Source: Candidatus Heimdallarchaeota archaeon (GTDB lineage: Archaea > Asgardarchaeota > Heimdallarchaeia > Hodarchaeales > Hodarchaeaceae). From it: a stretch of 41,715 bases of DNA. The notes beneath the pieces are model-generated. The model worked only from the letters and a program-made list of their open reading frames with translations. It was not told where the DNA came from and did not search any database. Location: positions 1 through 41,715 of the forward strand of contig DXJL01000005.1 of the NCBI GenBank assembly GCA_019057635.1, read 5' to 3'. Position numbers and translations under genes: made by a program. Positions 2,385-22,249 of the stretch are shown here, piece after piece; position 1 is the first letter of the stretch; each line of letters opens with the position of its first letter.

Positions 2385-3065
2385 ATGTTTGATATGGATT
2401 CTAAATTAGATAAATTATTTGAATCAAAACCTCAACCTGTCGTTTGGATTGAAGGTATAATTGGATGTGGTAAGACAACACTGACCAAAGCTATTTCTAG
2501 AAAGCTTAATTTTCGTGCTATTTATGAACCAGTAAATTTAGAATTATTAGAAATGTTTTACAAGGATCAGGATCGCTGGGCGTTTGCCATGCAAATTGAT
2601 CTACTCCACCGCCGCTATGCATTACAAAAACTGGCTTCTTTTGAATCTATTACAGGTCAAGGGGTAGTAATTGATAGAGGGCTTCCTGGAGATCGTGTTT
2701 TTGCCAAGATGTTATATAAAGCGGGAAAAATGGATCGAATCGAATGGGCTATTTACGAACGCGCATACTCGGTTATGACTAACTCTTTGATTCCTCCAAG
2801 TGTTATAATATTCATGGAAGTTCCTCCTGATGTAGCACGAGAACGAATAAGGAACAGAGATCGAAAAGCTGAACGTGGGGATTTAGTTCCACTTGCATAT
2901 CTTCAGGAATTGGAAAATGGCTATTTAGAACTCTTGTCAGAAATTGAATCGGCATATCCCGCATGGAGTAGAGGAATGAAAGTGATAAAACTTCCATTTA
3001 ATACCTCCGATGAATCCGAGGAGTCCATCAATAAAGTGATCGGTATAATACAGGATTTAATATAA
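2385..3065 (+). CDS. Deoxynucleoside kinase
   Basis: IEGIIGCGKTT, YEPV, FY.D..RWAF..Q, DR...D..F, RI..R.R..E motifs of the dNK family. Confidence 0.85.
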   Translation: MFDMDSKLDKLFESKPQPVVWIEGIIGCGKTTLTKAISRKLNFRAIYEPVNLELLEMFYKDQDRWAFAMQIDLLHRRYALQKLASFESITGQGVVIDRGLPGDRVFAKMLYKAGKMDRIEWAIYERAYSVMTNSLIPPSVIIFMEVPPDVARERIRNRDRKAERGDLVPLAYLQELENGYLELLSEIESAYPAWSRGMKVIKLPFNTSDESEESINKVIGIIQDLI

Positions 3066-3602
3066 ATGGTCCATATTAATATTGAGTTTAAAGCAAGATG
3101 TGACAATCCCGAGAGAATTCGTAAGATTCTCTTATCCGAGAATCCAGTGTTTAAGGGGAAAGATCACCAAATAGATACGTACTTCATTGTAGAGTCTGGG
3201 CGCTTGAAACTTCGAGAAGGGAATATCGAAAATGCATTAATCCATTATGAAAGACCGAATGTTGCGAATGCCAAACAATCAACAGTTCTTCTTCATCATC
3301 CTGAATCAGATAACACGTCTTCATTGAAAGAAATACTGATAAAAACCCTAGGTATTTTAACTGTAGTTGATAAAGAACGTGAGATTTATTTTATTGATAA
3401 TGTTAAATTTCATATTGATTACGTGAAGAATCTAGGTCACTTCATGGAAGTGGAAGCAATCGATAACGATGGGTCAATTGGTACTCAAAAACTTCAAGAA
3501 CAATGTGATCATTATCAAAAGTTGTTCCAGCTCTCTACGGAAGATCTAATTGAAGTATCATATTCAGATTTGATTTCGTTATCTGATAACAAGGTAAGTT
3601 AG
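3066..3602 (+). CDS. CYTH-domain protein (class IV adenylate cyclase / triphosphate tunnel metalloenzyme)
   Basis: N-terminal ExK (NIEFKA), QIDTYF, RLKLRE, K.R, H.D.V..LG.F.EVE, SY. Confidence 0.85.
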   Translation: MVHINIEFKARCDNPERIRKILLSENPVFKGKDHQIDTYFIVESGRLKLREGNIENALIHYERPNVANAKQSTVLLHHPESDNTSSLKEILIKTLGILTVVDKEREIYFIDNVKFHIDYVKNLGHFMEVEAIDNDGSIGTQKLQEQCDHYQKLFQLSTEDLIEVSYSDLISLSDNKVS

Positions 3603-3607
3603 TTAAT

Positions 3608-3928
3608 ATGGCATCTCTGAAAGAATTTCCTCCATTAATTGCCTACCAGAAGTATGTAGCTGAATTAGAAAAGGAGAGGGATTTTAAAGACCAATCAGTG
3701 ATTGACAAATGCTTATTACTCGGGGAAGAAGTAGGAGAATTGTTCAAAGCTGTCCGAAAGAAAGAAGGGTTGAATATTGATCTTAATTCAACCACCTCCC
3801 AAATTTCATATGAATTAGTAGATATTTTCATATTCCTGTGTGCAATTGCTAATCGTTATGATATCAATTTAGAAGATGCGTTTCGAGAAAAAGAAGAAAT
3901 AAATAAAAAGCGTCAATGGACCAAATAG
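3608..3928 (+). CDS. MazG-like nucleotide pyrophosphohydrolase
   Basis: LGEEVGEL.KAVRK...EL.D, IAN...I.LE.AF..KE..N..R.W. Confidence 0.85.
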   Translation: MASLKEFPPLIAYQKYVAELEKERDFKDQSVIDKCLLLGEEVGELFKAVRKKEGLNIDLNSTTSQISYELVDIFIFLCAIANRYDINLEDAFREKEEINKKRQWTK

Positions 3929-4239
3929 TGACGGAAACGTCGTCAAATCATGCTTTTACGACAATCGATTTCAAAGTGATTGTTTCATCTATAATCGAGA
4001 AAATGGGGAGGTGTGAAATCTTCCGAGGTATATTATCAAAATACGGTAGCACTTCAGCAGATACCCATTCAGCTTTGATGATGGATTCACAAAAAATGAT
4101 CCTCCTTTAATGAAGAGCTCCTCTCCGATACAAATTTGGGTGTTTATTAATCATTGTGTATGTTTTTTCTTATGATGCCACCTAGAACTGAACCGACTAA
4201 TAAATAAGTCCTCAACTATTCATAAATGAGATTCAAGCC

Positions 4240-6378: not shown

Positions 6379-6398
6379 TTGTACGAGTTTTTAGGTTT

Positions 6399-7523
6399 TC
6401 ATACCATGACGGCAGCAATTTTTGGAGGGTCATCAGATGAAATTGTTATCAGCCCTTTCGTTACTAGATCTCCAAGCATTTGTTTTAATTTTAATGGATG
6501 AGCCCCTACAGACATAGCCAATGTTGAAAGATCTAATACTCCTCCTAAATTTAATAGTATAAGTATTGACGCATATAATGGATGAGTAGAAAGGAGTCTT
6601 TGAGTATAATCAAGGAGAACATTTTTCTCAAGCCGTTCCGTAATTGCTTTTGATAATTCAGCTTGTGCCTCTAATAGTTCTTCTTCAGCGATTTTTGTAG
6701 CTTCTTCTAATCGATCTACTGTAATTTTGTGTTGTCGTGTCGCATCCTCTAGCCGTGTATTTTGTGTTTCTAGTTTCTTTTTCATTTCCTCAAGATTTAT
6801 TTCCATCTCTCGACGAATCTCTTTGGTTCGACTTTGAATTCCGTCTTGGAGCATACGCTGGTAGTAGTTCTCTTGAATCTGATAAGTTTCTGCAACAGAG
6901 GCTAATGCTTCTTGAATATCCTTTTCGTGGATCAGTTCTTTTTCTTTTAATTTCTCTATTAACGCCTGATTAATTTCTAACTCATTGATCAATTCCTTAG
7001 ACTGAGTTTGGTGAACTTCAAGCTCTTTCTGTTGATTTTCAAGCTGTGATTGTACACGCTTCATGTCAGCCTCTAATACGGTGATCTGATCAGTTTTTTC
7101 AGCCACTTGAGTGAAGCTGTCGGCCTTTTCACTTTCAAGTTGCTTTAGCTCTGTATTTTTTTCTTTTATCTGAGTTTTAAATTCCAGATTACTTTCTCGT
7201 AATTGTACCAGTTCATTCTCCTGTTCCAGGGAAGCTTCATCTTGAATGATGATCGTGCTCTCAGATAATACTTCTCTTATCCGTCCTAGTGATTTGATCG
7301 TAATGCGGGTTAATTCGCTATCTACAACACGAGCAGTATCTTTGCGTACAGTTTTAATCAAAGCGTCAATATCTTGATAACTGAAGTGTGGTAATCCTTG
7401 GGCAATAAGTGTACTCTTCGTACCTGATACCACTACGCCAATCTCTTGCTGAGCAACTTTTCGGTCTTTAGCCATCTCGTTTATAAATTCTAAACCAAAT
7501 TCTTTCAGCGATTTTTGTGTCAT
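6399..7523 (-). CDS. Long coiled-coil protein with C-terminal winged-helix-like domain
   Basis: E/K/Q-rich heptads ~aa 95-300; C-terminal ILILLNLGGVLDLSTLAMSVG...LGDLVTKGLI wHTH pattern. Confidence 0.65.
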   Translation of the reverse strand: MTQKSLKEFGLEFINEMAKDRKVAQQEIGVVVSGTKSTLIAQGLPHFSYQDIDALIKTVRKDTARVVDSELTRITIKSLGRIREVLSESTIIIQDEASLEQENELVQLRESNLEFKTQIKEKNTELKQLESEKADSFTQVAEKTDQITVLEADMKRVQSQLENQQKELEVHQTQSKELINELEINQALIEKLKEKELIHEKDIQEALASVAETYQIQENYYQRMLQDGIQSRTKEIRREMEINLEEMKKKLETQNTRLEDATRQHKITVDRLEEATKIAEEELLEAQAELSKAITERLEKNVLLDYTQRLLSTHPLYASILILLNLGGVLDLSTLAMSVGAHPLKLKQMLGDLVTKGLITISSDDPPKIAAVMV

Positions 7524-7661
7524 TTATTGTTCCCTCAAATGACCTTTTACTTTTCGGTGGATAATCAAATGAGTATTATATTTGTGCCAATATATAAAGA
7601 TGTAGGAGGAGCTTTCTTTCGATTTTTCCTCTCGGTATAATTTAACAATCCAAATTTTTTC

Positions 7662-8102
7662 TTAAGATCCCCAGAGATTTTGCAATTCTGGTAAAATGGT
7701 TACTGTAAGCAACGTTATTATTCCTTGGATCAGGATCGCCGTAGCTAATGCAAAGAAGATACTCAACAACGTACCCAGCAAATAATATTCTGCAAAATGG
7801 CGTTCTTTAAGTTGTTCAAATCGGGCCATTGATTTGGCAACGAATACAAAGGAAATCGCTCCGAATTCTCCCATTAATGCCAAGGTCAGGATTATTGCTC
7901 TTTCTACCTGTCCAATCTTTTTACCTGCGCCCGAAAGACCCATTGGTTTCTCGGTTGATTTGGGATCCTTATAGGGAGATAAGAAATGGCCAACGAAAAA
8001 GGCTCCCCCAAAAATCGCCCATAGATACGCGCATAGATAAAGCAAAACAAGTATTACAAATAAATCCAGTTGAAACAAATGGTATCCTCCTAGGATCAGC
8101 AC
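7662..8102 (-). CDS. Membrane protein resembling the C-terminal part of DUF3307-family proteins
   Basis: GL..AG..IG..ER, AKS.ARF, EYYLLGTLLS motifs; overlaps the end of the SatD-like gene. Confidence 0.7.
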   Translation of the reverse strand: MLILGGYHLFQLDLFVILVLLYLCAYLWAIFGGAFFVGHFLSPYKDPKSTEKPMGLSGAGKKIGQVERAIILTLALMGEFGAISFVFVAKSMARFEQLKERHFAEYYLLGTLLSIFFALATAILIQGIITLLTVTILPELQNLWGS

Positions 8103-8731
8103 TTTGGGTATGTTAATTTATTTAATGTTTCGATTGCAAATGCGATTTCCTCCCAATGGGCACTTTTAAGAATGTTTGAAACTGCCTGTTTTGTAATGTT
8201 TTCTTCTTTTTCTGTTACAATTTTTTTTCCGATCTTTTCATAAGTTAAACCTTGTTTCCGAAGGTGAATTACCTCTTTTTGTCTATCTGTCAGTTGCAAC
8301 TTTAAGGTGGTTAAGAGAGTTAGTAAAGAGTTTGTCAATTGATCAAATGAATCATTTTCTGACAGTATCCAAGCTGTTCGACCATTATCACTTGCAATCT
8401 TCAAAGCTGCTCGTGATCTATGAAAAGCATGACCATCCATTTCCAGAGAATTTCTCGAAAATTTGGTACTAATCGTCCCGATTCCTAAACCACATCGAAA
8501 TTTAAATGAGAGATCTTCTTCTAATCGCTCAAAAATTGAATAAAAATCTGTTAATTCTTTTAAAACTCCTTGAAATGAATCCCCCCAGACAATAATGAAG
8601 GGAGAAATTATTTTTTTTGAATGATCAATATTTATTTGTTTAATTACCGTTTTCAACTCTTCTTGAACTTCAAGTCTATTGGTGACTTCCTTTGAATGTA
8701 CAATATCGCAAGTCATAACAAAATACATCAT
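8096..8731 (-). CDS. SatD-family protein (nucleotide-cyclase-like palm domain + C-terminal HTH)
   Basis: TCDIVHSK, SPF....GDSFQG, R.GLGIG.I, DG.AFHRSR.AL; HTH LTDRQKEV...TYEKIG...TKQAVSNIL. Confidence 0.8.
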   Translation of the reverse strand: MMYFVMTCDIVHSKEVTNRLEVQEELKTVIKQINIDHSKKIISPFIIVWGDSFQGVLKELTDFYSIFERLEEDLSFKFRCGLGIGTISTKFSRNSLEMDGHAFHRSRAALKIASDNGRTAWILSENDSFDQLTNSLLTLLTTLKLQLTDRQKEVIHLRKQGLTYEKIGKKIVTEKEENITKQAVSNILKSAHWEEIAFAIETLNKLTYPKC

Positions 8732-8788
8732 TGTTGTTTCACTACTTTACATCTTTTTGATACTGGTGAATTTAATCCCATCTATCAA

Positions 8789-8899
8789 GTCAACTGTTTT
8801 CAATTGACAAATAGTTGGTCAACTCTTCAGTATTGAGTCAACTTAAAAAGCTTGTCATTCGTTCTGTCAATAGTTTTCGATTGACAAGGTCTTTGTCAA
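8789..8899. promoter_or_regulatory. Array of GTCAA-N10-TTGAC palindromic boxes upstream of the SatD-like gene
   Basis: Boxes at 8789-8808 (perfect), 8818-8837 (TTGAG), 8837-8856 (TTGTC), 8866-8885 (perfect), plus a half-site at 8895. Confidence 0.7.
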
Positions 8900-8905
8900 T
8901 ACGGA

Positions 8906-9988
8906 TTAGCGAGTATTGAGCGGAGTATGACAAACCTCACAGGCAGTTTCTTCCCCCTCGAGGATTTGATTTGTATTATTACAATTGTGACAGTGCACAA
9001 ACACTTTTTTTTCCTTGAAAAAACCAAAAGTACCTTTACCAGCCAATATAGTCTTATCTGCTTGTTCTTTCATCTTTTTGAACAAGGGATTCGATAAATC
9101 CGTAAGACTGGTGATAACACTTTGTCGGTCGGAATGTTGTTGTTTGAAGGCAATTTTTTCTTGAAGGTATGCTTTGCGTTCCTCAGGTGTCATCTTTTCA
9201 AGTCGTTGCAGCTCTTTCAATCGAAGAGTAAACTTGTTTCGTTGTTCTAGTGACATAGAACTGAGCGTTTGCGTGGAAAATTCTGATAATTTCTCTAAAG
9301 TCAGCGCGGAAAAGTCAACATAGGAAATATTTGATGAGGGGGTACGAATGTTTGTAGAAGAACTTATTGTTCCTGGAGGTGGTGGTGGGGGAGGATTGAT
9401 TGTATTGGACCTTAAAGGGGAGGACGTGGGAAAACTTCTGCTTGCTATTTGCTTGAGATTCGATGTAATGCTATCTTGGACTGTTCCACTGAACTCCTCG
9501 ATTACAGTCGATAAGTACTCCTTCGAGGTAAATTCTTGTTGTTTATTTTCTAGAGATTTCAATTGTGCTTCTAATTCGCCGAGACGAGACATTAATTCAA
9601 GTAATTGCTGATCATTTTTGGATTCTTTGAGCTCTTTCTCAACATTACTCAATTCTTTCTGGTTATGACAAATATTACAGATACCGTTAATTAATTCGTC
9701 CTTTAAGGTTCTTCTACCACAGTTCTGGCAGATTGTGAACATTATTCTAAGTTCAGTAAGAGCAGTCTGAATTCGTTTATCATTCGAATTCAATTTGGCT
9801 TTGTTCTGATTCGAATCTCTTGCAATTACAGGTTTATGAATGAATATGGAGTCTCTTATTGACCAGTCTTTGTCATACATCGTTCCTAGTTGTTGGAGAG
9901 CTTTTTCTATATTGTTGAAAGGCTTCTTCTTCCCCCTCAGAGAGGAATGGGATTCAATGGCAGTATTTAATTTAGTTCTTTTGAACAT
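8906..9988 (-). CDS. Hypothetical protein: two CxxC/CxxC zinc fingers, coiled coil, heptaproline tract
   Basis: CQNC...CNIC, coiled coil, PPPPPPP in an S/T-rich linker, C-terminal CHNC...CEVC. Confidence 0.75.
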   Translation of the reverse strand: MFKRTKLNTAIESHSSLRGKKKPFNNIEKALQQLGTMYDKDWSIRDSIFIHKPVIARDSNQNKAKLNSNDKRIQTALTELRIMFTICQNCGRRTLKDELINGICNICHNQKELSNVEKELKESKNDQQLLELMSRLGELEAQLKSLENKQQEFTSKEYLSTVIEEFSGTVQDSITSNLKQIASRSFPTSSPLRSNTINPPPPPPPGTISSSTNIRTPSSNISYVDFSALTLEKLSEFSTQTLSSMSLEQRNKFTLRLKELQRLEKMTPEERKAYLQEKIAFKQQHSDRQSVITSLTDLSNPLFKKMKEQADKTILAGKGTFGFFKEKKVFVHCHNCNNTNQILEGEETACEVCHTPLNTR

Positions 9989-10004
9989 GATTTAATTCCT
10001 AATC

Positions 10005-10661
10005 CTAGTCAAGAGAAATAGCCTGTTCAAGAAACGACTGTGCTACAGATCGTTCGTTCGTGTCTACAGCTGAATTGCTTTCCTTGATTACAACTACTGC
10101 AATTCTTGCCAGTAAATCAAAATTTGGATCTAAGATTTGTTGTAATCCATTTTTAAGAAATTGAGCAGAAGACATTTCACGTTCGAGAGCAGTATTTGTA
10201 ATTCGATCCAACTCCGAGTAGATCACCTCGGCTATTTGTGGATCAATCTTTGTTGATAATTCTTGCCCGTCTGGAGCATTCTGCTCGGAATAAGCTTCAG
10301 AATCTTTTAAGAATCGTTGAATTACACTCATGGTATCATAAATTAAAATTGACTTTTGTTTGATAACATAGTGGTCATAGAATGCTTGCCAGTAGGGTTT
10401 ATGTGGGATACCTATGTAGCGTTGACGTTGACCTTTAGGTATAGAGATATTTACAACCGCAATTGCTTGTTTCTCTACTAATCGAGCAATTGCCCCATCA
10501 ATTTTTCCCCTACTCCAATTTAAACGAAGTACCAGGTCATTTACTGTTACGGGACGATCGAATTTGGAGAGTCTGCTGAGCATTTTTTGATCTGTTTCTT
10601 CAGCATTTCCTCGAGGCACGATTATATAACATCCTTTTACGTTAGAACAGACTTTTTCCAA
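10005..10661 (-). CDS. Winged-helix DNA-binding hypothetical protein
   Basis: PVTVNDLVLRLNWSRGKIDGAIARLVEKQAI wHTH pattern; 16 bp upstream of the next gene, probably co-transcribed. Confidence 0.6.
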   Translation of the reverse strand: MEKVCSNVKGCYIIVPRGNAEETDQKMLSRLSKFDRPVTVNDLVLRLNWSRGKIDGAIARLVEKQAIAVVNISIPKGQRQRYIGIPHKPYWQAFYDHYVIKQKSILIYDTMSVIQRFLKDSEAYSEQNAPDGQELSTKIDPQIAEVIYSELDRITNTALEREMSSAQFLKNGLQQILDPNFDLLARIAVVVIKESNSAVDTNERSVAQSFLEQAISLD

Positions 10662-11131
10662 ATTGACGGATATTTGTGTCTATCATTCTTGATAATAGCA
10701 TTCAGACAAGTCTAAATTTTTATGGTCTTAACATCCCAATTTTCATCTTTGGAGATGCAGATTTTCAGGTAAATTTGATATCTACTTGACTATATAACTT
10801 TATTGCTAGATTGAGGATATAAGTCGGACATTCTGTTAAAAAAAGAGATGTTAAGCGCGCCTATTACGTTATAAATGATATTCAAACCATCCCTTTCGGC
10901 CTTTTCTATCCCATAATTTAGTTAATGAAATAATAGTCGTGTCTATAACATTTTTAATTCATTTATAAGTACAAGAGTTCCTGTATCCTTTAAAGAAGGA
11001 AGCTTATATTATTAGGCCTGACGATTAACAACTGCATTTAATGAATAGAAATATTTAGAATTACTAGTACCCTTGTCTCTTCAGTATATTATGCGCTACA
11101 AAGAGCTAGTTAACAATTGGAAGGAAAATAA

Positions 11132-12988
11132 ATGGAAATCAACATAGATGGTTGCAAGATTGTCCTTTTGGACTTTTTTCAGAAGAATAAATCTAATCTC
11201 CTTAAATCACTCAAATCTGACGAAGTTCAGACCTTTCTCGAGCCATTAAGCGATATGACCATAATATTTTCAGATATACAAAAGACTACTGAGTTAAAAA
11301 AATATCTTAAAAATCTAGAAATACCAGAAGAAAATTTAAAAGACATTTTACAATTCTTTGATCGTCCTTTTCAATCCTCATTCTCTTGGGGATTCCAGGA
11401 TAAAGAATTCGTGTTCATACGCTTGGAAGAAACGACTAAATTGTTTCTTAAGAAAAATCGTAAAGGTTTAACAGGATTGATTATTCATGAAGTGTTACAT
11501 GGTGTACAACGCCAGCGAGGCTTAGAAATTCGTTTACACGACTCATTAGACTTCAGCTTGGATTTCTTTACACAATTGGCTGAGGTGATTCCTCCAGAAA
11601 AGTACAATCGCACACAAATAATATCATTTCTGAAACAAATATCTCAACTTGCTTTATTTGCGTTAAAAGACATATTTGTTAATGTTGAATTAATTAAACG
11701 AGGAATGGCAGAGTGGTTAATAATTTTCTATCGTGATGAGCTGGGATTTGGTGAAAATCTTGAAATTAAGCCTCCCCAGTACGAAACTGAATTCGAAAAA
11801 GGCGTCATTAAGGTAAAGGATCTGGATTCATTTGCCACAGCGTTTACTTATACGTTATCACTTATACCAATATGGTTACCCTTCATGGTTTTGGAAACTG
11901 ACTCAAAGGACTATGAACCGTCCCGTGAGTTGAAACATTTAATTTTTGATAAGTATTACGTTAATCCTTCATTCATTACACGGGAGATGTGGCATATAGA
12001 AAACATATTTCTGGCCAGCTTCTCCTTTTCCAAGAGTTTTCATCGTAAGTGGTATGGTGCGATCTTTAACTTAGCTCTTGAACATCTACTTGGTGAAGAT
12101 TTTCTGTTTTATCATCTCTTCAAGGCTACTGAGCTCTTAGAAGAGCTCTATACAACCCAAGAATCTGAAGAAAGAAAATCTATGGCCATGGTTCCAATTT
12201 TGAAAGCTGCTTATGTCTATAGACGAGAACAACTCGTAGGTATTCAAAAAAGGAACATTGAAGAGTTAAATTCTAAAATGCAACAATATGAAATAGGGGA
12301 GGAGGAAATTACAGAGCTTGAAGAAAGTATTGATGAACCTTCTGAACATGCTACTTCTCCAGAGCATATGTTTGAAAACCTCATGAAACTTTCAATTATG
12401 ATTGTAACACGAGATTTACGAGTAAATGTGTTTTCTGGTGAAAATTTTAAATTTAAGATCTTTAGTCGAACGATACTCTCTCTTCTCCAAGCGATTAATT
12501 ATCTAGAAGACGAGTGTGACGATCAATATTATCATACAGTTCGCTTAGGTGTGAAACGACTTCTCCGAACAGATAATCTGTTTAAACGTAAAAGATGGGC
12601 ATTATTACTGGAGAATTTTGCTCAAAATACGATTTTTCATGGAGAAACTGAACCCTCACAACTAGAAATTGATGAATTAATTTATAACTATGACTTTTTT
12701 GAAATTCCATTGACTAATTTCTTCATTGACCTTGGCGTATCTTTTATTCAGAATATAAAAACAGTCATGAAAACAGTCTCTGTAAACGATGATGAATTTC
12801 CTTTTTTAACAGCTCAACTTATCAATATTCAAATTGGAGGGATTAAACTTCCAATAGAAGATGAAGAACATCTGAACTTGATGTATGTAAGCAGTCTTAT
12901 TGCTACAAAAGGGATTCCATACAGAATGATACAAATCATGCTTACAGCTTTTCTACAAACTAGAGTCCCAAAGGAAGAAACAGATTAG
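11132..12988 (+). CDS. Hypothetical protein with HEXXH zincin-like motif
   Basis: GLIIHEVLHG followed ~55 aa later by KDIFVN; otherwise helical and acidic. Confidence 0.65.
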   Translation: MEINIDGCKIVLLDFFQKNKSNLLKSLKSDEVQTFLEPLSDMTIIFSDIQKTTELKKYLKNLEIPEENLKDILQFFDRPFQSSFSWGFQDKEFVFIRLEETTKLFLKKNRKGLTGLIIHEVLHGVQRQRGLEIRLHDSLDFSLDFFTQLAEVIPPEKYNRTQIISFLKQISQLALFALKDIFVNVELIKRGMAEWLIIFYRDELGFGENLEIKPPQYETEFEKGVIKVKDLDSFATAFTYTLSLIPIWLPFMVLETDSKDYEPSRELKHLIFDKYYVNPSFITREMWHIENIFLASFSFSKSFHRKWYGAIFNLALEHLLGEDFLFYHLFKATELLEELYTTQESEERKSMAMVPILKAAYVYRREQLVGIQKRNIEELNSKMQQYEIGEEEITELEESIDEPSEHATSPEHMFENLMKLSIMIVTRDLRVNVFSGENFKFKIFSRTILSLLQAINYLEDECDDQYYHTVRLGVKRLLRTDNLFKRKRWALLLENFAQNTIFHGETEPSQLEIDELIYNYDFFEIPLTNFFIDLGVSFIQNIKTVMKTVSVNDDEFPFLTAQLINIQIGGIKLPIEDEEHLNLMYVSSLIATKGIPYRMIQIMLTAFLQTRVPKEETD

Positions 12989-13284: not shown

Positions 13285-13390
13285 TGGGCCTGGGGGGATT
13301 TGAACCCACGAACCATCCGGTTATGAGCCGGACGCTCTAACCATTTCAGAGGGTTATGACGTTATAAGCCCTAAACTGAGCTACAGGCCC
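13285..13390 (-). tRNA. tRNA with CAT anticodon (probably Ile2, otherwise elongator Met) with a D-loop intron
   Basis: GGGCCTG/CAGGCCC acceptor, TCCGG-CTCATAA-CCGGA anticodon arm; 30-nt intron at 13344-13373 with TCAG/CTGA BHB helix. Confidence 0.9.
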
Positions 13391-17773: not shown

Positions 17774-18148
17774 TTAATCGGGTATGACTGTAGGAGCATA
17801 GGATTGGCCATCAAGACGTATGTAATTTCTGAAAGTTTTTCCCCGACCGCCCTGAAAATAAACAAGGGCTCCATTGGGAGACAATCTTGGAATTTTTTTA
17901 GCATTTTTATGTGAGGGAAATATTTCTTCATGATTGGATGTATTTTGAGAGGAAGGAGGATTAACTAGTCCGTCTAAAGCGTCGTTAAACGTATTATAGT
18001 TGTCTTCATTAGGATAAAGAGGAATCATGAAGTTAGAGATAAAAACTCTTTTTGCACTAGGAACTCTATAATTTAAAGCTTCGATGACATTAAAATAAAT
18101 GTCTGAAAATGGGGTAGGAGTAAATTCACACCTGCTGAAAGATTGCAT
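17774..18148 (-). CDS. Hypothetical protein
   Basis: 124-aa ORF filling the rpoL to tRNA-Ser gap; no recognised motif. Confidence 0.4.
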   Translation of the reverse strand: MQSFSRCEFTPTPFSDIYFNVIEALNYRVPSAKRVFISNFMIPLYPNEDNYNTFNDALDGLVNPPSSQNTSNHEEIFPSHKNAKKIPRLSPNGALVYFQGGRGKTFRNYIRLDGQSYAPTVIPD

Positions 18149-18200
18149 GAAAGATACGAAAGTTAATTAGAAAGGGATAAGAAAGAACAGAACGATGTGA

Positions 18201-18316
18201 GTCGGGATATCCAAGCCTGGTAATCAGCCATGAGAACCATACTGGACCAGAATGGAGCCAGCCTGCTAAGTTGGTGTTCTCTGAACTCGGGGGTTCAAAT
18301 CCCCCTCCCGACGCCA
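18201..18316 (+). tRNA. tRNA-Ser(GCT) with a 21/22 intron and encoded CCA
   Basis: GTCGGGA/TCCCGAC acceptor + GCCA; CCAGC-CTGCTAA-GTTGG; long variable arm; 30-nt intron at 18223-18252 with CTGG/CCAG helix. Confidence 0.92.
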
Positions 18317-18497
18317 ATTTTTTTCTTATTCTTGAATACATTCGGTTATAATTGTTTTCTAACTGTAGTACGTGAAGTTTGTTTCTCCATATTCAATTTT
18401 AAAGATGATTTATTGATTTCATTGCCATAACATTGAAGATCAGAATTCTCAGCAGATAGTGTAATTCAGGAAAAACAAAAATCATCTAGGGTTATTA

Positions 18498-18522
18498 TTG
18501 AAACTATCGAGAATAGTTTCAA
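18498..18522. repeat. Perfect 10-bp inverted repeat
   Basis: TTGAAACTAT-CGAGA-ATAGTTTCAA. Confidence 0.6.
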
Positions 18523-18610
18523 GAATTCTGAAACTTATGGAAAATATGAGCATCCTGGGGAACAAATGAAAATTCCACCAATTTGTGTAATAACTAGATA
18601 AAAGAGGGAG

Positions 18611-18714
18611 GGCCGGTGCGGGGAATCGAACCCCGACATGGTGGGCCACAACCACCGATTATAGTGATCTAGATACCAGAATAGGGATCTCTATCAAGAC
18701 TACCATTATCCTAC
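18611..18714 (-). pseudogene. 5'-truncated tRNA-His(GTG) copy (positions 7-73) with a 39-nt intron at 24/25
   Basis: GTAGGATAATGGTAGTC[18697-18659]TCGGTGGTTGTGGCCCACC...GCACCGGCC; clean BHB (GTAG/CTAT helix, TC|T and AA|T bulges); upstream CTAAATC cannot pair with the acceptor 3' strand. Confidence 0.85.
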
Positions 18715-18754
18715 GATTTAGTGAGCTTATAAAGAGAAGTAAAGGTTAGTCTAT

Positions 18755-21349
18755 ATGAATCATTATTCGCAAATATTCAAAACAAATCGGGCTTTAAATA
18801 AGGTTAATAAACCTAAAGAGGCAGCTGAGGAAGAAGAAATCGAAACTGCCAATCTGATGCATGTTAAGAACAGTATTGGATCTTTTCAAAGAAGTTTACC
18901 CTTAATCATCCTTGAAAAAAGGTCTAATTCTCTAATGAATAAATACTTTGGCGAATTCAATATAGAACATACAGTTACGGCTTCTATTAAAGGTAATGAA
19001 ACTTTAGCAAAGACTATTATTTTATATAAGGAAAGTAAAGGATCCACTTTCATTTATGATAGTTTTGGAAGAATTAGAGATTATTCGCAGCTTAAGGAAT
19101 CCTATTCAAACTCAAATCGATTGTTGAATATTCTTCATACCTCAATTTCTGAAGGTAATAAATCGATTCGATTAACAAAATTATATTTTAATTTCAAAAA
19201 AAATCTTGTAAAAAACAATTTTTCCAATTTGACAACAAATTTCAAAATTAACGAACGTAAATCATTAGTTGGATGGATATCTGTTACCTCAAACAGTATG
19301 GATATTATCACAGATATGGATAACTGTCTTGGAATAATAGAATTATTAAAAGAGAAAAGAAGATTCAATGAAATTACCTGGAACATATTGAAAGAGTTCA
19401 TTTTTCTAAAAATATTGAGAATTTTCTTTGGAAGGTGCGAAATTGATAATTTTGATGCATTTTTAAGAATTCTATTTGATTTATTGAGTAATCACAAAAA
19501 AAGAATCTCTCTCACTGTTTCGATTCTGTATAACGATCTTCTGTTTGTCATCGATAGAATTACAATTTCAAAAATAAATAAACTTAAGGATTTAGAGGGC
19601 ATAATTAACAACTTTGAATATGAGTGTATGGTTGATGCTTTATCCACTAATTCTAAGATAACAAGGTACTCTTTTGAAGAGATTTCCATAAAAAATAATA
19701 ATTTTGACACCATTTTCAAAATATTGAGGCAGTTTGAATCTTCTAAACTATTCTTAATGGCATTTAAGTATTCAGTAGATATTCAGCTATTAATTGTGAA
19801 GGGGAAATTAGCACTCACTTTCACTTATAAAGAATCCAATTTGCTTCGCAAGTATTTAAATCGGTTTTTCCACCCCTTAGGAATTACAATAAAACAAAAA
19901 AAGGGGGTTAATTTTCACAAGGTTTCCACTAGATATAGTAGAAGTTTAGGAATTAAAATAAACAAAATTAAAAATGTGAATCAGTTCTCGATTTTAATAA
20001 ATCTTAGGAAGCTTGGAAAACATAAAATTGAGCTTCTCGATCTAATCGTCAAACACTGTATCATTTACCAATTATATAACATAGGCGTTTCTCCAAGACA
20101 AATTAGGTTTCTTACTCATAGTGATAGAATATATCACGAATTAAAAGAAATTTCTGGGGGAAAAGAAAAGAGCAAGCAATTCCATAAGGATATTATCAAT
20201 TTCTTTATTGATTTTAACAAAGTTCTAATTAATAATATACATATTGATTCAAAAAGCATAAACTCAATTAATTGGAACTCGTGTATCAGAAACCAAGTTA
20301 AGAACCTTAATGAATTATTGGTTAATTCATTAAAATCTGAAATCTCTACAAATTACCAGCTTAGTTTACTCGATAGCAAGATCAAGGCATTAATTCAGTT
20401 TGGTGACTCTCCATTAAAGAGAATTAATAACCTAGAAATGAACGAAAATAGTTTAAAAAGTGTTAATGATGAAAATAAAGGAGCTACTCTATTATTTAAA
20501 AACTATATAATGAATTCGGAGGATAATCCTCTTTCCAAAGTTCTAAATATTGAAGGAAGTGCTGATGAGTACATTATCACTGATAAATATTCGGTTGCTA
20601 ACTGTGGAACCAAGAGTTATTGGTTTGGTGCTCCTGATATTTTAATAATTGATCGAAAATTAAAGAGGACTGTTGCTTTTATCCATCTCAAAGGAAAAAC
20701 ATTGGAAAAAAAAAGATTCACCCCACAAGGTATTATTTATCAGATCTTAGACTTAAAAGTGCTAGAGCAACTTTCAAACCTTAAGATTGCTTATGTGTTT
20801 ATCAGAGATTATTCAAATGATATAAAAAACCCTAGAATTCTATATCAATGGTATATAATAACTCAGCAATCAACTCAGTTCATAAGAAATCAATCTTGTA
20901 CTGATAAAGAAAAATGGAACTTGAAAAATTCTTCATTTGACAATCTCTTTCATGATATGATATTGAATAGAATTTTTCGCAGCAAAACACTCTCGAGGGG
21001 TTTCTACAGCAAGTGTGGGAAAACTACAACCAAGAATAAAAAAAATTTCACTCCAAATGAGATTGAACTATTTATTTCTGAAAAAGCCTCTGAAATTCAG
21101 CAAAAAATACTGCTTGCAACTCAGCTACTCGAAAAACATTTTAATATAAGTAGTAGCTATTTACAAAGAATAATTAGGAGTAAATATGAGAATTTTGTAT
21201 CCAATACAATTAATAACTTAGCACGGAATATTACTTCTGAGAGAAGCTTAGGACCTTACAAAACACAATCTATTTGGGAACAAACAATCCTAGATGCTTC
21301 CTTAACAAAATTTTATAACGGATATAAAGTCATAAATACAGTAGATTGA
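18755..21349 (+). CDS. 864-aa K/N/I-rich orphan protein with a C-terminal PD-(D/E)XK-like nuclease motif
   Basis: FGAPDILIID...AFIHLKG...IIYQI at ~20620-20750; composition differs from neighbouring genes. Confidence 0.65.
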   Translation: MNHYSQIFKTNRALNKVNKPKEAAEEEEIETANLMHVKNSIGSFQRSLPLIILEKRSNSLMNKYFGEFNIEHTVTASIKGNETLAKTIILYKESKGSTFIYDSFGRIRDYSQLKESYSNSNRLLNILHTSISEGNKSIRLTKLYFNFKKNLVKNNFSNLTTNFKINERKSLVGWISVTSNSMDIITDMDNCLGIIELLKEKRRFNEITWNILKEFIFLKILRIFFGRCEIDNFDAFLRILFDLLSNHKKRISLTVSILYNDLLFVIDRITISKINKLKDLEGIINNFEYECMVDALSTNSKITRYSFEEISIKNNNFDTIFKILRQFESSKLFLMAFKYSVDIQLLIVKGKLALTFTYKESNLLRKYLNRFFHPLGITIKQKKGVNFHKVSTRYSRSLGIKINKIKNVNQFSILINLRKLGKHKIELLDLIVKHCIIYQLYNIGVSPRQIRFLTHSDRIYHELKEISGGKEKSKQFHKDIINFFIDFNKVLINNIHIDSKSINSINWNSCIRNQVKNLNELLVNSLKSEISTNYQLSLLDSKIKALIQFGDSPLKRINNLEMNENSLKSVNDENKGATLLFKNYIMNSEDNPLSKVLNIEGSADEYIITDKYSVANCGTKSYWFGAPDILIIDRKLKRTVAFIHLKGKTLEKKRFTPQGIIYQILDLKVLEQLSNLKIAYVFIRDYSNDIKNPRILYQWYIITQQSTQFIRNQSCTDKEKWNLKNSSFDNLFHDMILNRIFRSKTLSRGFYSKCGKTTTKNKKNFTPNEIELFISEKASEIQQKILLATQLLEKHFNISSSYLQRIIRSKYENFVSNTINNLARNITSERSLGPYKTQSIWEQTILDASLTKFYNGYKVINTVD

Positions 21350-21466
21350 TTTATTCATTTTAGGATTGATGAGCAAGATTGAAAAATCTTACGTTAGCAA
21401 ACACCAATCTTATGAAATATCAGATAACGATTTAAGTTAATAAAAATCGTCACACTTTATAGCAAT

Positions 21467-21567
21467 GGCCGATGTAGGATAAATATGAGCAGATATTTGC
21501 TCGTAGACTATTGGTAGTCTCGGTGGTTGTGGCCCACCATGTCGGGGTTCGATTCCCCGCATCGGCC
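21467..21567 (+). tRNA. tRNA-His(GTG) with encoded G-1 and a 29-nt D-loop intron
   Basis: G-GCCGATG/CATCGGC-C acceptor; GGTGG-TTGTGGC-CCACC; intron at 21483-21511 defined by comparison with the left copy. Confidence 0.9.
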
Positions 21568-21700
21568 CTCACTTTCTAACAGTTTACCATTAAATTCATC
21601 CAATTTAATGCTTTTTTGGATAAAACACTTTAAGCATGATAAGTTTTAATTAGTATAGAACTATTATTCTTTATGGAGATTTATTTTAGGAAATATCCCT

Positions 21701-22249
21701 ATGACAAAAGGAAAACAAACACCCACTTCATTAGCGCTTGGCTGTATTCATGTTATTACGGGTGATGGGAAAGGAAAAACCACTTCTGCGTTAGGTCTTG
21801 CGCTAAGAGCAGCGGGTCACGACCTTAAGACCTTAATGATTCAATTTATGAAAAAAGGATGGGATTATGGAGAATTGAGAGCGGTTAAATTCTTCCCAAA
21901 TATCCAGATTATCCAGTACGGCACTCCTGATTTTGTGAACAAATCTAACCCCCTCCCTATCGATTTTCAGGAAGCTCAAGCAGCTCTGGCGCACTTTAAA
22001 AAGGAATTGAGTAATAATTGGGATATTATCATATTAGATGAGATTAACGTGGCACTTGACTATCACTTGATTTCTGAGCAGGAGGTTCTTGATCTTCTCG
22101 AGAGAAAACCTAAAAATCTTGAGGTCATATTAACTGGTAGATATGCCAGTCAAGCCATAATTGACTTAGCTGATTATTATACAACAATACAATCTGTTAA
22201 ACATCCGTATCAAAATAACATTAATGCCCGAAAAGGTGTAGAATTTTGA
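21701..22249 (+). CDS. cobO: Cob(I)alamin adenosyltransferase (CobO/BtuR)
   Basis: TGDGKGKTTSALGLALRAAG, QFMK, ILDEINVA, ILTGR, KHPY...ARKGVEF. Confidence 0.93.
   Translation: MTKGKQTPTSLALGCIHVITGDGKGKTTSALGLALRAAGHDLKTLMIQFMKKGWDYGELRAVKFFPNIQIIQYGTPDFVNKSNPLPIDFQEAQAALAHFKKELSNNWDIIILDEINVALDYHLISEQEVLDLLERKPKNLEVILTGRYASQAIIDLADYYTTIQSVKHPYQNNINARKGVEF

What the first reader, a model, noticed from the sequence alone, without database searches (positions are those of the whole stretch)
18608..21570. Single-gene nuclease-like island bracketed by INVERTED tRNA-His copies
Seen: two tRNA-His(GTG) sequences point away from each other (18611-18714 minus, 21467-21567 plus). They share a 51-bp inverted repeat with one mismatch that runs 3 nt past the discriminator. 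Between them lies only one AT-rich 864-aa orphan ORF. Known: integrase-driven insertion at tRNA genes leaves a DIRECT repeat of the tRNA 3' part, and the element usually carries an integrase; neither applies here. Inference: this could be an undescribed selfish or defence cassette that uses tRNA halves as terminal inverted repeats, or one that disrupts the host tRNA-His and supplies a replacement, or an invertible segment. Best candidate for a novel system in this window.
Basis: partly seen in the sequence, partly recalled or inferred. Interest (0 to 1): 0.85.

Follow-up and report, generated by a model that had tools for sequence, protein, structure and literature searches.

The report
Orphan gene plus replacement tRNA-His island
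An Asgard archaeon's own tRNA-His gene was cut short when about 3 kb of foreign DNA arrived carrying a large unknown gene and a complete, oppositely oriented tRNA-His, so the "inverted repeat" is two tRNA alleles facing each other rather than the ends of a transposon.

Summary
The 54-nt inverted repeat (18605-18658 / 21520-21573) exists, and a single low-GC 864-aa orphan ORF lies between the arms. The minus-strand "tRNA-His" is a pseudogene: it lacks the 5' acceptor strand and is otherwise 112/112 nt identical to the intact gene of the closest relative, G002. The plus-strand copy is complete but a different allele, with a D-loop intron instead of an intron before the anticodon stem.

The repeat is just the genus-wide conserved 3' exon, not a recent duplication or a terminal inverted repeat. 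Compared with G002, window 18715 to about 21739 is a replacement tract. Its right junction is a homologous crossover inside cobO codons 1-13. Its left junction is an illegitimate join at tRNA position 7/8. There is no integrase, transposase, TIR or target duplication.

The linkage ORF -> 32-nt motif -> intron-bearing tRNA-His recurs in one distant metagenome contig (ORFs 39% identical), there in the opposite orientation to cobO. The ORF family is restricted to Hodarchaeales-type Asgard archaea.

"Disrupts the resident tRNA and supplies a replacement" is supported. The TIR cassette and the invertible switch are not. A homing-endonuclease-like drive remains a testable minority reading.

The parts
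18201..18316 (+). tRNA-Ser(GCT) with an intron and an encoded CCA; conserved left anchor of the variable slot
   Evidence: T-arm scan. ARAGORN calls tRNA-Ser(gct) in 272 in-silico intron-deletion variants. The block 18151-18313 is 84-91% identical in G004, G020 and G018 and aligns with G002.
18314..18610 (.). Spacer between tRNA-Ser and the resident tRNA-His 3' end; homologous to G002 but unusually divergent
   Evidence: About 83% identity to G002 in 18300-18599, against 0.91-0.99 in the other fully aligned flank windows. The cause is unexplained.
18611..18714 (-). Pseudo-tRNA-His, 'type A': D-arm, ~39-nt intron before the anticodon stem, anticodon arm GTG, T-arm and 3' acceptor CACCGGC + C; the 5' acceptor strand (7-8 nt) and promoter are missing
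   Evidence: Identical to G002's intact gene from 'GTAGGATAATGG' to past the 3' end, 112/112 nt. Acceptor pairing 1/7. ARAGORN calls it in 1 of 1080 variants. No 5' partner elsewhere in the genome.
18605..18658 (.). Left arm of the 54-nt inverted repeat (the 3' exon of the pseudo-copy plus 6 nt of flank)
   Evidence: I1, 96% complementary.
18715..21739 (+). Replacement tract absent from G002: ORF promoter region, ORF864, motif, tRNA-His(+), spacer and the first ~13 codons of cobO
   Evidence: The blastn boundaries with G002 are 18714 and 21686. Fine alignment shows 12 differences in cobO CDS nt 1-39, then about 98% identity. GC is 0.27-0.30. No TIR or direct repeat at the ends.
18755..21349 (+). 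ORF864 (P0001): orphan protein of a Hodarchaeales-restricted family; conserved core at about residues 570-700 (E573, A626-P627-D628, A641, I643, H644 [Q in the others], K646, G647, Q663, Y697, W699)
   Evidence: (2 hits among 1.84 billion representatives). No Pfam, PADLOC, PHROG, NCBIfam or PDB sequence match.
21404..21435 (+). Conserved motif CCAATCTTATGAAATATCAGATAACGATTTAA between the ORF stop and tRNA-His; probable promoter or regulatory element of the plus copy
   Evidence: 31 of 32 nt shared with L052 although the ORFs are only 39% identical. The core CAGATAACGATTTAA matches exactly only upstream of tRNA-His(+) in G000, G004 and G020 among 22 genus genomes. It is absent upstream of the other relatives' tRNA-His. 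A promoter role is inferred.
21467..21567 (+). Intact tRNA-His(GTG), 'type B': encoded G-1, 8-bp acceptor GGCCGATG/CATCGGCC, ~29-nt D-loop intron (about 21483-21511)
   Evidence: 7/7 acceptor pairs. ARAGORN calls tRNA-His(gtg) after removal of 22-38 nt in silico. The pre-tRNA folds at -43.8 kcal/mol, z = -4.15, and 0 of 200 shuffles fold as well. It is the only intact 5' acceptor + D-arm in the genome.
21520..21573 (.). Right arm of the inverted repeat (the 3' exon of the intact copy plus 6 nt of flank)
21701..22249 (+). cobO (ATP:corrinoid adenosyltransferase): right anchor; its first ~39 nt belong to the imported tract
   Evidence: Pfam PF02572, E = 6e-61. Mosaic 5' end.
17774..18148 (-). 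Fragment of a C5 DNA methyltransferase gene (context, not part of the island)
   Evidence: Matches part of a 323-aa PF00145 ORF that is intact in G004 and G018.

Best explanation
The interval is a recombination scar at a rearrangement-prone tRNA-His/cobO locus of an Asgard (Hodarchaeales-type) archaeon. It is not a transposon-like cassette. A tract of about 3.0 kb (18715 to about 21739) came from a related lineage in which tRNA-His lies on the same strand as cobO, directly upstream of it. The tract carries an 864-aa orphan gene, a 32-nt conserved motif, a complete D-loop-intron tRNA-His and the first ~13 codons of cobO.

The tract replaced the promoter and 5' acceptor strand of the resident, oppositely oriented tRNA-His and everything between that gene and cobO. 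The right join is a homologous crossover inside cobO. The left join is an illegitimate join at tRNA position 7/8. The resident gene survives as a dead 3' remnant. The imported allele is now the only functional tRNA-His.

The 54-nt inverted repeat is a by-product: two alleles of one highly conserved tRNA facing each other. The orphan gene sits about 117 nt upstream of a single-copy essential tRNA, and that linkage is conserved in a second, distant genome. I infer that the gene persists and spreads as a hitch-hiker on tRNA-His, moved by homologous recombination through the conserved flanks. Its biochemical role is unknown; a PD-(D/E)xK-type nuclease is possible.

Shown: the anatomy, the boundaries, the allele types, the recurrence of the linkage and the clean presence/absence. 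Inferred: direction and donor of the transfer, hitch-hiking, promoter role of the motif, nuclease activity.
For: (1) The resident copy is truncated. The minus copy equals G002's intact gene, 112/112 nt including the intron, and shares its 3' flank. Identity stops at '...CCTAC|' inside the tRNA. Acceptor pairing is 1/7, against 6-7/7 in the other 18 of 20 scorable copies apart from L052's defective copy.
(2) There is a single functional gene. The genome holds two copies of the 3' half, and the 5' acceptor + D-arm matches exactly at only one place. The plus copy folds and is called tRNA-His.
(3) The alleles differ. Intron positions differ and each copy is internally coherent. The plus copy, its motif and its 3' spacer match G004 and G020.
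(4) The right junction is homologous. G000 versus G002 is 0.77 identical in the first 100 alignment columns and 0.98 in the next 100. All 12 CDS differences fall in nt 1-39. The flanks elsewhere are 0.91-0.99 identical.
(5) There is no mobility machinery. ORF864 has no Pfam hit, and the insert ends show no TIR or direct repeat.
(6) The locus is a hotspot. Across, 17 of 21 same-genus genomes show a tRNA-His D-arm or 3' half. Each has one gene (G019's lies across two contig ends). cobO is adjacent in all 16 whose contig reaches it; G020's short contig does not. Orientation is divergent from cobO in 14 and co-directional in G004 and G021, in G020 (judged by its left flank) and in G000's plus copy. 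The slot holds unrelated cargo: an IS plus split ORFs in G002, an 819-aa orphan in G018 and a 601-aa orphan in G008.
(7) The linkage recurs. In L052 the 39%-identical P0005 is followed by the same motif and a D-loop-intron tRNA-His next to cobO, in the opposite orientation to cobO.
(8) Presence/absence is clean. No ORF remnant was found in 16 of 16 relatives' slots at E <= 1.
(9) The arrangement is stable. ORF pieces at 99% identity or more occur in runs from two other studies, and a 21250-21581 contig is present in X4.
Against: The donor arrangement (tRNA-Ser, ORF864, tRNA-His(+), cobO with no pseudo-copy) has not been observed. G004 and G020 have the motif and the plus-oriented tRNA-His but no ORF.

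The spacer left of the pseudo-copy is only about 83% identical to G002. The tract might therefore extend further left, and the truncation might have happened in the donor.

Why the illegitimate join falls exactly at the 5' edge of the tRNA body is not explained by plain recombination.

With only two full-length orthologues, the conserved linkage could be old synteny followed by repeated loss rather than co-transfer. L052's intact tRNA-His has an intron most like that of its nearest relative G005, so there the tRNA looks native rather than imported.

Orientation of the middle segment cannot be read from k=31 contigs. It rests on comparative coherence and one short X4 contig. G000 is a 91.6%-complete MAG, so another tRNA-His could be unassembled.
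Confidence: 0.62

Rival explanations
1. Homing-endonuclease-like drive ('collaborative homing'). ORF864 would be a free-standing site-specific DNA nuclease that cuts tRNA-His genes with an uninterrupted D-arm near positions 8-16. Its own linked tRNA-His would be immune because the D-loop intron splits the target. Repair of the break from a donor copies the ORF, motif and intron-bearing tRNA-His into the recipient. Here that would be by homologous invasion on the cobO side and end-joining at the break.
For: The break in the resident gene (position 7/8) lies 8 nt from the intron insertion site of the linked allele. Both ORF-linked tRNA-His genes (G000, L052) have the D-loop intron, and both defective copies lack it. 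The gene shows clean presence/absence between conserved genes. A short co-converted flank lies in cobO. There are no integrase or transposon features. The conserved E...APD...QxK core resembles PD-(D/E)xK, one of six recognised homing-endonuclease families (PMC6083498, passages). A free-standing endonuclease protected by an adjacent intron is an established mechanism in cyanophage (PMC6083498, passages).
Against: The nuclease fold is unproven. Pfam and PDB sequence searches found nothing, and ORF864 has H where 16 of 17 members have Q at the would-be catalytic position. The protein is far larger than typical homing endonucleases. In L052 the defective copy reads better as an att-type repeat of a separate integrated element, which leaves one clear case. 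The intron pattern has a chance probability of roughly 0.06, given that 11 of 21 copies carry the intron. The 5 paralogues are not next to tRNAs. The inverted geometry does not fit two-ended homologous repair.
Confidence: 0.15
2. Decayed integrase-type island plus inversion. An element integrated site-specifically into tRNA-His, leaving the usual partial tRNA copy. It later lost its integrase, and the segment holding the regenerated tRNA was inverted, possibly by the integrase itself.
For: tRNA-His in this group does carry att-like direct repeats. L052 has an intact copy and a 5'-defective copy 3.58 kb apart (start-to-start 3577 nt) with shared blocks of 43 nt (95%) and 32 nt (88%) around three orphan ORFs. 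Archaeal integrase att sites can lie in the 5' part of a tRNA (tRNA-Leu 2-44), and one integrase inverts DNA between inverted tRNA copies (PMC5495485, passages). A tRNA fragment plus an intact copy that gained an intron, flanking a single-ORF insertion, is described in Caldiarchaeum (PMC3293823; abstract, Results part 1, Discussion part 1). The orientation of tRNA-His relative to cobO has flipped in G004, G020 (by its left flank) and G021.
Against: No integrase or fragment of one lies in the interval. The intact copy has its own promoter motif and its own 5' acceptor rather than the resident's. The right junction is a homologous crossover in cobO, not an att site. An inversion across the shared 3' exon would leave chimeric alleles, which are not seen. 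No viral contig carries this tRNA-His 3' half.
Confidence: 0.12
3. Invertible switch: the 54-nt inverted repeats mediate flipping of the ORF-bearing segment, and both isomers coexist.
For: An inverted repeat with a 42-nt perfect run exists. One X3 contig starts with 6 letters before 21520 that do not fit the window (table 8); I could not see those letters.
Against: No joints in 4 runs (contigs only, so this is weak). No invertase. The flipped form would pair a GATG 5' acceptor with a CACC 3' acceptor. The repeat is explained by tRNA conservation.
Confidence: 0.03
4. The minus copy is the 3' piece of a split (trans-spliced) tRNA-His whose 5' piece is encoded elsewhere.
For: Split and multi-intron tRNAs occur in archaea (PMC3293823 abstract; PMC4090602 passages). 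The copy keeps a perfect body from position 8.
Against: None of the 18 GCCGGTG sites in the genome is followed by sequence complementary to the leader (best local score 7). The pattern GGCCGRTGTAGG matches exactly only at the plus copy. An 8-nt exon would be unprecedentedly short (my assessment). G002 has the same gene intact.
Confidence: 0.02

Closest known systems
tRNA gene disruption by a mobile element in Caldiarchaeum subterraneum (Sugahara et al. 2012, PMC3293823; abstract, Results part 1 and Discussion part 1 read)
   Same: A tRNA fragment and an intact tRNA of the same identity, with different intron content, flank a short insertion holding essentially one ORF. There is heterogeneity between very close genomes. 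Homologous recombination is invoked after the insertion.
   Different: There the fragment is the 5' part, the copies are direct, the ORF is a putative recombinase and the element is repeated six times in the genome. Here the fragment is the 3' body, the copies are inverted, the ORF has no recombinase signature, the tract is single-copy, and one junction is a homologous crossover in the neighbouring protein gene.
Integrase-type (SSV / pNOB8 / pTN3) islands at archaeal tRNA genes
   Same: A tRNA gene is the site of foreign DNA, a partial tRNA copy is left behind and tRNA function is maintained. The contig L052 shows the classical direct-repeat form at the same tRNA-His.
   Different: In the window there is no integrase and no direct repeats. 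The functional copy has its own promoter and 5' end, and the boundaries do not coincide with the repeat.
Free-standing homing endonucleases with 'collaborative homing' (F-CphI / psbA intron of cyanophage S-PM2; PMC6083498, passages read; the original Zeng et al. 2009 paper seen only as a citation)
   Same: An optional gene sits beside a conserved gene whose copy in cis carries an intron close to the break seen in the intron-less allele. A flanking marker is co-converted.
   Different: No nuclease activity or fold has been shown. The intron is an archaeal protein-spliced tRNA intron, not a group I intron. The host is a cellular Asgard genome. The geometry is inverted. There is only one clear case.
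Aloposons of Ca. Heimdallarchaeum (Wu et al. 2022, PMC8813620; passages read)
   Same: Asgard (Heimdall-group) elements in which very large orphan genes lie immediately upstream of a tRNA gene that marks the insertion site.
   Different: Aloposons have tandem 3000-6000-aa genes, four conserved upstream genes including a ParA-like ATPase, and integrate at tRNA sites. ORF864 is a single 864-aa gene. No relative of P0005 or the family profile was found outside this genus among 400 phylum genomes and 83 class genomes.
PD-(D/E)xK nuclease superfamily
   Same: The order and spacing of conserved residues: E, then about 50 aa, then (A)PD, then 17 aa, then (Q/H)-x-K-G, in hydrophobic strand-like contexts.
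   Different: The second acidic residue is Q (H in ORF864). There is no Pfam or PDB sequence match. The fold is untested.

Membership tests
Integrase-driven tRNA-targeted genomic island | Tyrosine (or serine) recombinase gene within the island | tested here: not met
   ORF864 is the only substantial ORF. It has no Pfam family at E <= 0.01 and no PHROG or NCBIfam hit.
Integrase-driven tRNA-targeted genomic island | Direct repeat of a tRNA part at the two island ends | tested here: not met
   The copies are inverted. The ends of the foreign tract (18715 and about 21739) are not the repeat. L052 does meet this feature.
Integrase-driven tRNA-targeted genomic island | Regenerated tRNA keeps the host promoter and 5' part | tested here: not met
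   The intact copy has a different 5' acceptor (GATG versus GGTG) and a motif absent from G002 and G018.
DNA transposon with terminal inverted repeats | Transposase, TIRs at the true ends, target-site duplication | tested here: not met
   No transposase domain. Local alignment of the insert ends scores 14 (inverted) and 18 (direct), which is chance level.
Site-specific invertible segment | Invertase gene, and both orientations present in the population | tested here: inconclusive
   There is no invertase and no joints in 4 runs, but those runs are contigs only and cannot show minority forms.
Free-standing homing endonuclease (collaborative homing) | Recognised nuclease domain | tested here: inconclusive
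   The E...APD...(Q/H)xK motif is invariant or nearly so in 17 members. There is no Pfam or PDB match.
Free-standing homing endonuclease (collaborative homing) | Optional gene between conserved genes, with clean presence/absence | tested here: met
   Absent without remnants in 16 of 16 relatives' slots. The flanks are conserved.
Free-standing homing endonuclease (collaborative homing) | Target in the neighbouring gene is interrupted or altered in the carrier genome | tested here: inconclusive
   The linked tRNA-His has a D-loop intron in 2 of 2 carriers, and the defective copies lack it in 2 of 2. However, 11 of 21 copies in the group carry the intron anyway, and the target site is unknown.
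Free-standing homing endonuclease (collaborative homing) | Site-specific cleavage of the allele lacking the gene | not testable with these tools
   Needs an in vitro or in vivo cleavage assay.
Split / trans-spliced tRNA | Separate 5' piece with a leader complementary to that of the 3' piece | tested here: not met
   0 of 18 candidate sites. The assembly is 91.6% complete.
PD-(D/E)xK nuclease superfamily | alpha-beta-beta-beta-alpha-beta core with D and (D/E)xK on adjacent strands | not testable with these tools
Only motif-level resemblance is available.
Known anti-phage defence systems (PADLOC) | Match to a defence protein model | tested here: not met
   No PADLOC family matched P0001, or P0005, P0002 and P0008.
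Aloposon | Tandem giant genes, a four-gene upstream module with a ParA-like ATPase, and a tRNA downstream | tested here: not met
   A single 864-aa gene with no such neighbours. Only the tRNA-downstream feature is shared.

The most novel reading that the evidence does not exclude
ORF864 and its orthologue would be the first free-standing, tRNA-gene-targeting homing nucleases in Asgard archaea. They would cut tRNA-His genes with an uninterrupted D-arm. The protein-spliced D-loop intron of the linked tRNA-His would act as the immunity determinant, so nuclease, motif and intron-bearing tRNA spread together by break repair. That would give a concrete selective reason for non-canonical archaeal tRNA introns (protection from, and co-spread with, a selfish nuclease). 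It would also describe a gene-drive-like replacement of an essential single-copy tRNA.
Probability: 0.13. Interest if true: 0.85.

Novelty: new variant of a known kind. Interest (0 to 1): 0.42.

Why it matters
The locus shows at nucleotide resolution how an essential single-copy tRNA gene in an Asgard archaeon can be swapped for another allele. The new allele has a different intron position, strand and promoter, and the old gene is left as a dated remnant. This bears on how non-canonical tRNA introns and tRNA fragments arise and move between lineages.

It also defines a lineage-restricted orphan protein family (17 members, all annotated hypothetical). One subfamily is tightly and repeatedly linked to tRNA-His. 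If that protein proves to be a site-specific nuclease, the locus becomes a test case for the long-standing idea that tRNA introns are tied to conflicts with mobile elements.

There is also a practical point. ARAGORN, and Rfam at its gathering threshold, missed the tRNA-His and tRNA-Ser genes here (3 of the 4 tRNA-like genes in the window), so tRNA-linked islands in these genomes will be under-reported.

Tried and rejected
**Structure and look-alike tools.**
- The look-up of encoding contigs was not called because it is closed.
- As a result there is no fold evidence for the nuclease idea.

**Sequence-level function searches that found nothing.**
- Pfam.
- PADLOC.
- PHROGs. The only hit was P0005 to phrog_35199 (unknown function) at E = 0.005, with no passing stretch.
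- NCBIfam.
- PDB profiles. The only hit was a 22-residue stretch at E = 2.3.

**Viral origin.**
- The family profile found no relative in viral contigs.
- The tRNA-His 3' half has no match there.
- The 17-nt motif hit 32 viral contigs. None of the 32 has any tRNA-His-like word within 200 nt, so they are chance matches.

**Filled versus empty site for the G002 paralogue.** G000's contig C56 is homologous only downstream of the paralogue (AcnX side) and unrelated upstream. No clean comparison was possible.

**'Same breakpoint in two genomes'.** I first read L052's second copy as a resident gene cut at position 7/8, like G000's. I withdrew this after and the intron comparison. L052's intact copy is the native one (its intron is closest to G005's). 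The defective copy plus three orphan ORFs fits an ordinary att-type integration. Its 'GGCAGG' could also be a decayed acceptor.

**Other cargo at the hotspot.**
- ORF864 and G018's 819-aa ORF are unrelated (best E = 0.21).
- No slot in 16 relatives holds ORF remnants.

**Alignment A3.** The G004 and G020 rows used wrong coordinates and were ignored. Only the G000/L052 pair was used.

**Not attempted.**
- The bulge-helix-bulge splicing motif was not modelled.
- Supplementary files of papers were not opened. Those of PMC5495485 and PMC3293823 may hold att-site details that bear on rival 2.

**Runs with small shares.** The parts of the stretch without cover in X2-X4 are not evidence either.

Full report
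**1. What is in the sequence.** The repeat finder confirms an inverted repeat with arms at 18605-18658 and 21520-21573: 54 nt, 96% complementary, 2861 nt apart. Reading the sequence shows that each arm is the anticodon arm (anticodon GTG), T-arm and 3' acceptor strand of a tRNA-His. ARAGORN finds no tRNA in the whole window. Rfam at gathering threshold finds only a tRNA at 13285-13390 with a 37-nt insertion in its D-loop. At permissive thresholds the two arms give only sub-threshold partial tRNA-like matches. The tRNA genes of this organism therefore carry non-canonical introns.

Between the arms lies one 864-aa ORF (18755-21349, +). Its GC is 0.27-0.30 in a window that otherwise runs 0.34-0.43. 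The neighbours are cobO, methylmalonyl-CoA mutase subunits, a PAN-type AAA ATPase, RNA polymerase subunit L and an RNase III-like protein.

**2. The organism.** The window is the whole contig C10 of a 3.19-Mb, 214-contig genome that is 91.6% complete. A same-genus genome's contig (G013:C62, 7490 bp) has the same length as a public record titled "Candidatus Hodarchaeota archaeon". G002's paralogue is named by its source as a protein of a "Candidatus Heimdallarchaeota archaeon". I therefore treat the host as an Asgard archaeon of the Hodarchaeales type. The runs holding this DNA are marine-sediment and cold-seep metagenomes.

**3. The two copies are different things.** I extracted tRNA-His from every genome of the genus in which a pattern found it. 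The 38-nt 3' half matched in 13 of 22 genomes. The D-arm pattern matched in 18 of 22. Only G000 has two copies.

Of 22 rows examined (including two from L052), 2 run off contig ends. Of the 20 scorable rows, 18 have 6-7 of 7 acceptor pairs. The window's minus copy has 1/7 and L052's second copy 3/7.

The minus copy is identical to the intact gene of G002 from "GTAGGATAATGG" onward. That covers a ~39-nt intron before the anticodon stem and the 3' flank. G002's GGCCGGTG is replaced by unrelated sequence. The plus copy has a full acceptor (GGCCGATG / CATCGGCC, with encoded G-1) and a ~29-nt intron in the D-loop.

After in-silico removal of 22-38 nt, ARAGORN calls the plus copy tRNA-His(GTG) in hundreds of variants. 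It does the same for G002's gene. It calls the minus copy in 1 of 1080 variants. The plus pre-tRNA folds into acceptor, anticodon and T arms plus an intron hairpin (-43.8 kcal/mol, z = -4.15, 0 of 200 shuffles as stable).

The exact 5' acceptor + D-arm word occurs once in the genome. None of 18 GCCGGTG sites is followed by anything complementary to the minus copy's leader, so a split tRNA is rejected.

The 38-nt core of the repeat is identical in the single genes of G002, G020, G004 and G018. The bases just past the discriminator are also shared. The repeat is therefore the conserved 3' exon of tRNA-His, not evidence of a recent duplication.

**4. Boundaries against the closest relative.** G002 shares 94-100% protein identity with the flanking genes and 0.91-0.99 nucleotide identity in 300-nt windows.

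- Left: homology with G002 runs to 18714. Base-by-base it ends at "...CCTAC|" inside the tRNA, so 7-8 nt of the 5' acceptor strand and everything upstream are replaced.
- Right: homology resumes at 21686. The fine alignment shows that the first 39 nt of cobO carry 12 differences and the next 100 columns are 98% identical. The real junction is a homologous crossover at about 21739. The donor must therefore already have had tRNA-His(+) directly upstream of cobO.
- Ends: the insert ends show no terminal inverted or direct repeats.
- Age: the pseudo-copy is 112/112 identical to G002's gene, while ordinary intergenic DNA in the flanks is about 92-93% identical and the adjacent spacer about 83%. The truncation therefore looks recent. 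The low identity of the spacer is unexplained. It leaves open that the tract reaches further left.

**5. The locus is a hotspot.** The ancestral order, seen in most genomes, is mutase-cobO | tRNA-His (divergent from cobO) | luciferase-like gene or, in the G000 clade, tRNA-Ser.

- Orientation is divergent from cobO in 14 genomes and in L052. It is co-directional in G004, G021, G020 (by its left flank) and the window's plus copy.
- The slot holds unrelated cargo. G002 has a DDE transposase plus two ORFs that are a split homologue of G008's 601-aa ORF, which lies in the opposite orientation. G018 has an 819-aa orphan.
- G004 and G020 join tRNA-Ser to a 15-nt core motif and a D-loop-intron tRNA-His(+) within about 90 nt, with no ORF.

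**6. The ORF family.**
- A search of 1.84 billion representatives found two hits. One is P0005 (870 aa, 39% identity over nearly the full length). The other is a 130-aa near-identical fragment.
- A profile found the C-terminal core in 5 of 21 other genomes of the genus and in 0 of 62 elsewhere in the class. P0005 matched 4 of 21 in the genus and none of the 378 other genomes searched in the phylum.
- The core profile recovered 17 proteins of 258-1487 aa. All the named ones are "hypothetical protein" of Hodarchaeota, Hodarchaeales, Heimdallarchaeota or Promethearchaeota MAGs, and none has a Pfam domain.
- Invariant in all 17 are A626-P627-D628, A641, I643, K646, G647, Q663 and A679. Position 644 is Q in 16 of 17 and H in ORF864. 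A glutamate about 50 residues upstream is conserved in 6 of the 7 members of the core alignment.
- This E...PD...(Q)xK order resembles PD-(D/E)xK nucleases. That comparison is my own reading of the motif.
- The five distant paralogues lie beside AcnX, an amidohydrolase, a radical-SAM gene and Nre. None has a tRNA T-arm nearby.

**7. The linkage recurs.** The contig encoding P0005 (L052) carries cobO(-) at 8586-9164 and P0005(+) at 10001-12613. After P0005 comes a block sharing 31 of 32 nt with window 21404-21435, and then a D-loop-intron tRNA-His(+). The ORF -> motif -> tRNA-His linkage is therefore conserved while the ORFs have diverged to 39%. The unit lies in the opposite orientation to cobO compared with the window.

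The core of the motif matches exactly only at these tRNA-His genes in G000, G004 and G020. One-mismatch hits are no more frequent than for the reversed control. No relative's slot holds a remnant of the ORF (0 of 16).

L052 also has a second, 5'-defective tRNA-His 3.58 kb downstream in direct orientation. It has an intron in the anticodon loop, and three orphan ORFs lie in between. L052's intact gene has an intron closest to that of its nearest relative G005. I therefore read that pair as an ordinary att-type integration at the 3' side. I do not count it as a second case of a resident gene being cut.

**8. Assembly and population.** Logan contigs of the probable source run tile the region and break in the shared 42-nt run, as expected at k = 31. 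A 2924-nt contig covers 18638-21561.

Such graphs cannot orient the middle segment. The assembled orientation is supported in three ways:
- Each copy is internally coherent: the A-type intron goes with the A-type acceptor, as in G002, and the B-type 5' acceptor goes with its compensating B-type 3' acceptor, as in G004 and G020.
- The left side is continuous with G002.
- An independent X4 contig at 21250-21581 has no differences. It reaches only 20 nt beyond the shared run, fewer than the 31 the tool asks for.

ORF pieces at 99% identity or more occur in X2, X3 and X4, which come from two other studies. No joints were reported, but contigs drop rare forms.

**9. Interpretation.** The best-supported account is a replacement by recombination. 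A tract from a related lineage brought the orphan ORF and a complete tRNA-His allele. It entered by a homologous crossover in cobO and an illegitimate join at the 5' edge of the resident tRNA body, and it left the resident gene dead. The imported allele is now essential.

The ORF lies about 117 nt from the tRNA, and that linkage is kept in a distant genome. I infer that the ORF hitch-hikes on the tRNA.

The TIR cassette and the invertible switch do not.

Two known mechanisms remain as rivals for the cause of the break:
- A homing-type nuclease whose own tRNA is shielded by the D-loop intron. The logic is that of collaborative homing (PMC6083498, passages) and of the proposal that introns shield tRNA genes from mobile elements (Randau and Soll, as cited in PMC4090602, passages).
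- A decayed integrase-type island with later inversion (PMC5495485, passages; PMC3293823).

My literature searches listed nothing describing this ORF family or an ORF-tRNA-His unit in Asgard archaea. These were keyword searches of an open-access library, so this is not proof of absence.

**10. Verdict.** It is a new variant of a known kind, a tRNA-associated island with a tRNA remnant. Its distinctive features are the inverted geometry, the absence of any recombinase, a homologous junction in the neighbouring gene, and a conserved orphan-gene/tRNA-His linkage. Interest is moderate. It would be high if the nuclease/intron-immunity reading were shown.

Noticed in passing
window 17774-18148 (-): The 124-aa ORF is a fragment of a C5 cytosine DNA methyltransferase. 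That gene is intact (323 aa, PF00145) and paired with a DUF2122 RecB-family nuclease (161-163 aa) in G004 and G018. In G002 the whole stretch is deleted. It is a decaying methyltransferase/nuclease pair beside the hotspot.
   Followed up: partly
window 18201-18316 (+): An intron-containing tRNA-Ser(GCT), missed by ARAGORN and by Rfam at gathering threshold. It has an encoded CCA in G000 and G002 but not in G004 or G020.
   Followed up: partly
window 13285-13390 (-): A tRNA with a 37-nt insertion in the D-loop (Rfam 53.8 bits), another non-canonical intron. The same gene is present in G002 (L022 3409-3514).
   Followed up: no
window 18314-18600: The spacer between tRNA-Ser and the pseudo-tRNA-His is only about 83% identical to G002. 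Flanking intergenic DNA is about 92-93% identical and the pseudo-tRNA itself is 100%. Unexplained: it may be a second recombination tract.
   Followed up: partly
L052 12848-16430: Three orphan ORFs (428, 301 and 247 aa; no Pfam, PHROG or PADLOC hits) lie between an intact tRNA-His and a 5'-defective tRNA-His in direct orientation. The pair shares blocks of 43 nt (95%) and 32 nt (88%). The defective copy has an anticodon-loop intron. It looks like a small integrated element without a recognisable integrase.
   Followed up: partly
L022 (G002) 8781-11966 and L029 (G008) 9042-10847: G002's slot holds a DDE transposase (PF01609) and two ORFs (290 + 341 aa). These are a split version of G008's 601-aa orphan, which occupies the same slot in the opposite orientation.
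   Followed up: partly
L079 (G021) 9617-9632: In G021 the tRNA-His is also flipped to be co-directional with cobO, and the luciferase-like gene that normally follows it is missing. This is an independent rearrangement at the same locus.
   Followed up: no
window 21520 (read laying, X3 record 24): A 683-nt contig of run X3 matches 21520-22196 but starts with 6 letters that do not fit the window. I could not see the letters. They could be the inner flank of the other repeat arm, from a graph artefact at low depth or from a flipped isomer.
   Followed up: no
L043 (G018:C158) 1282-5745 and L045 (G002:C91) 5333-8851: Two very large paralogues (1487 and 1172 aa) share only the ~140-aa core with ORF864. 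Both lie directly upstream of an Aconitase-X gene. G000 has the AcnX gene but unrelated DNA upstream of it.
   Followed up: partly
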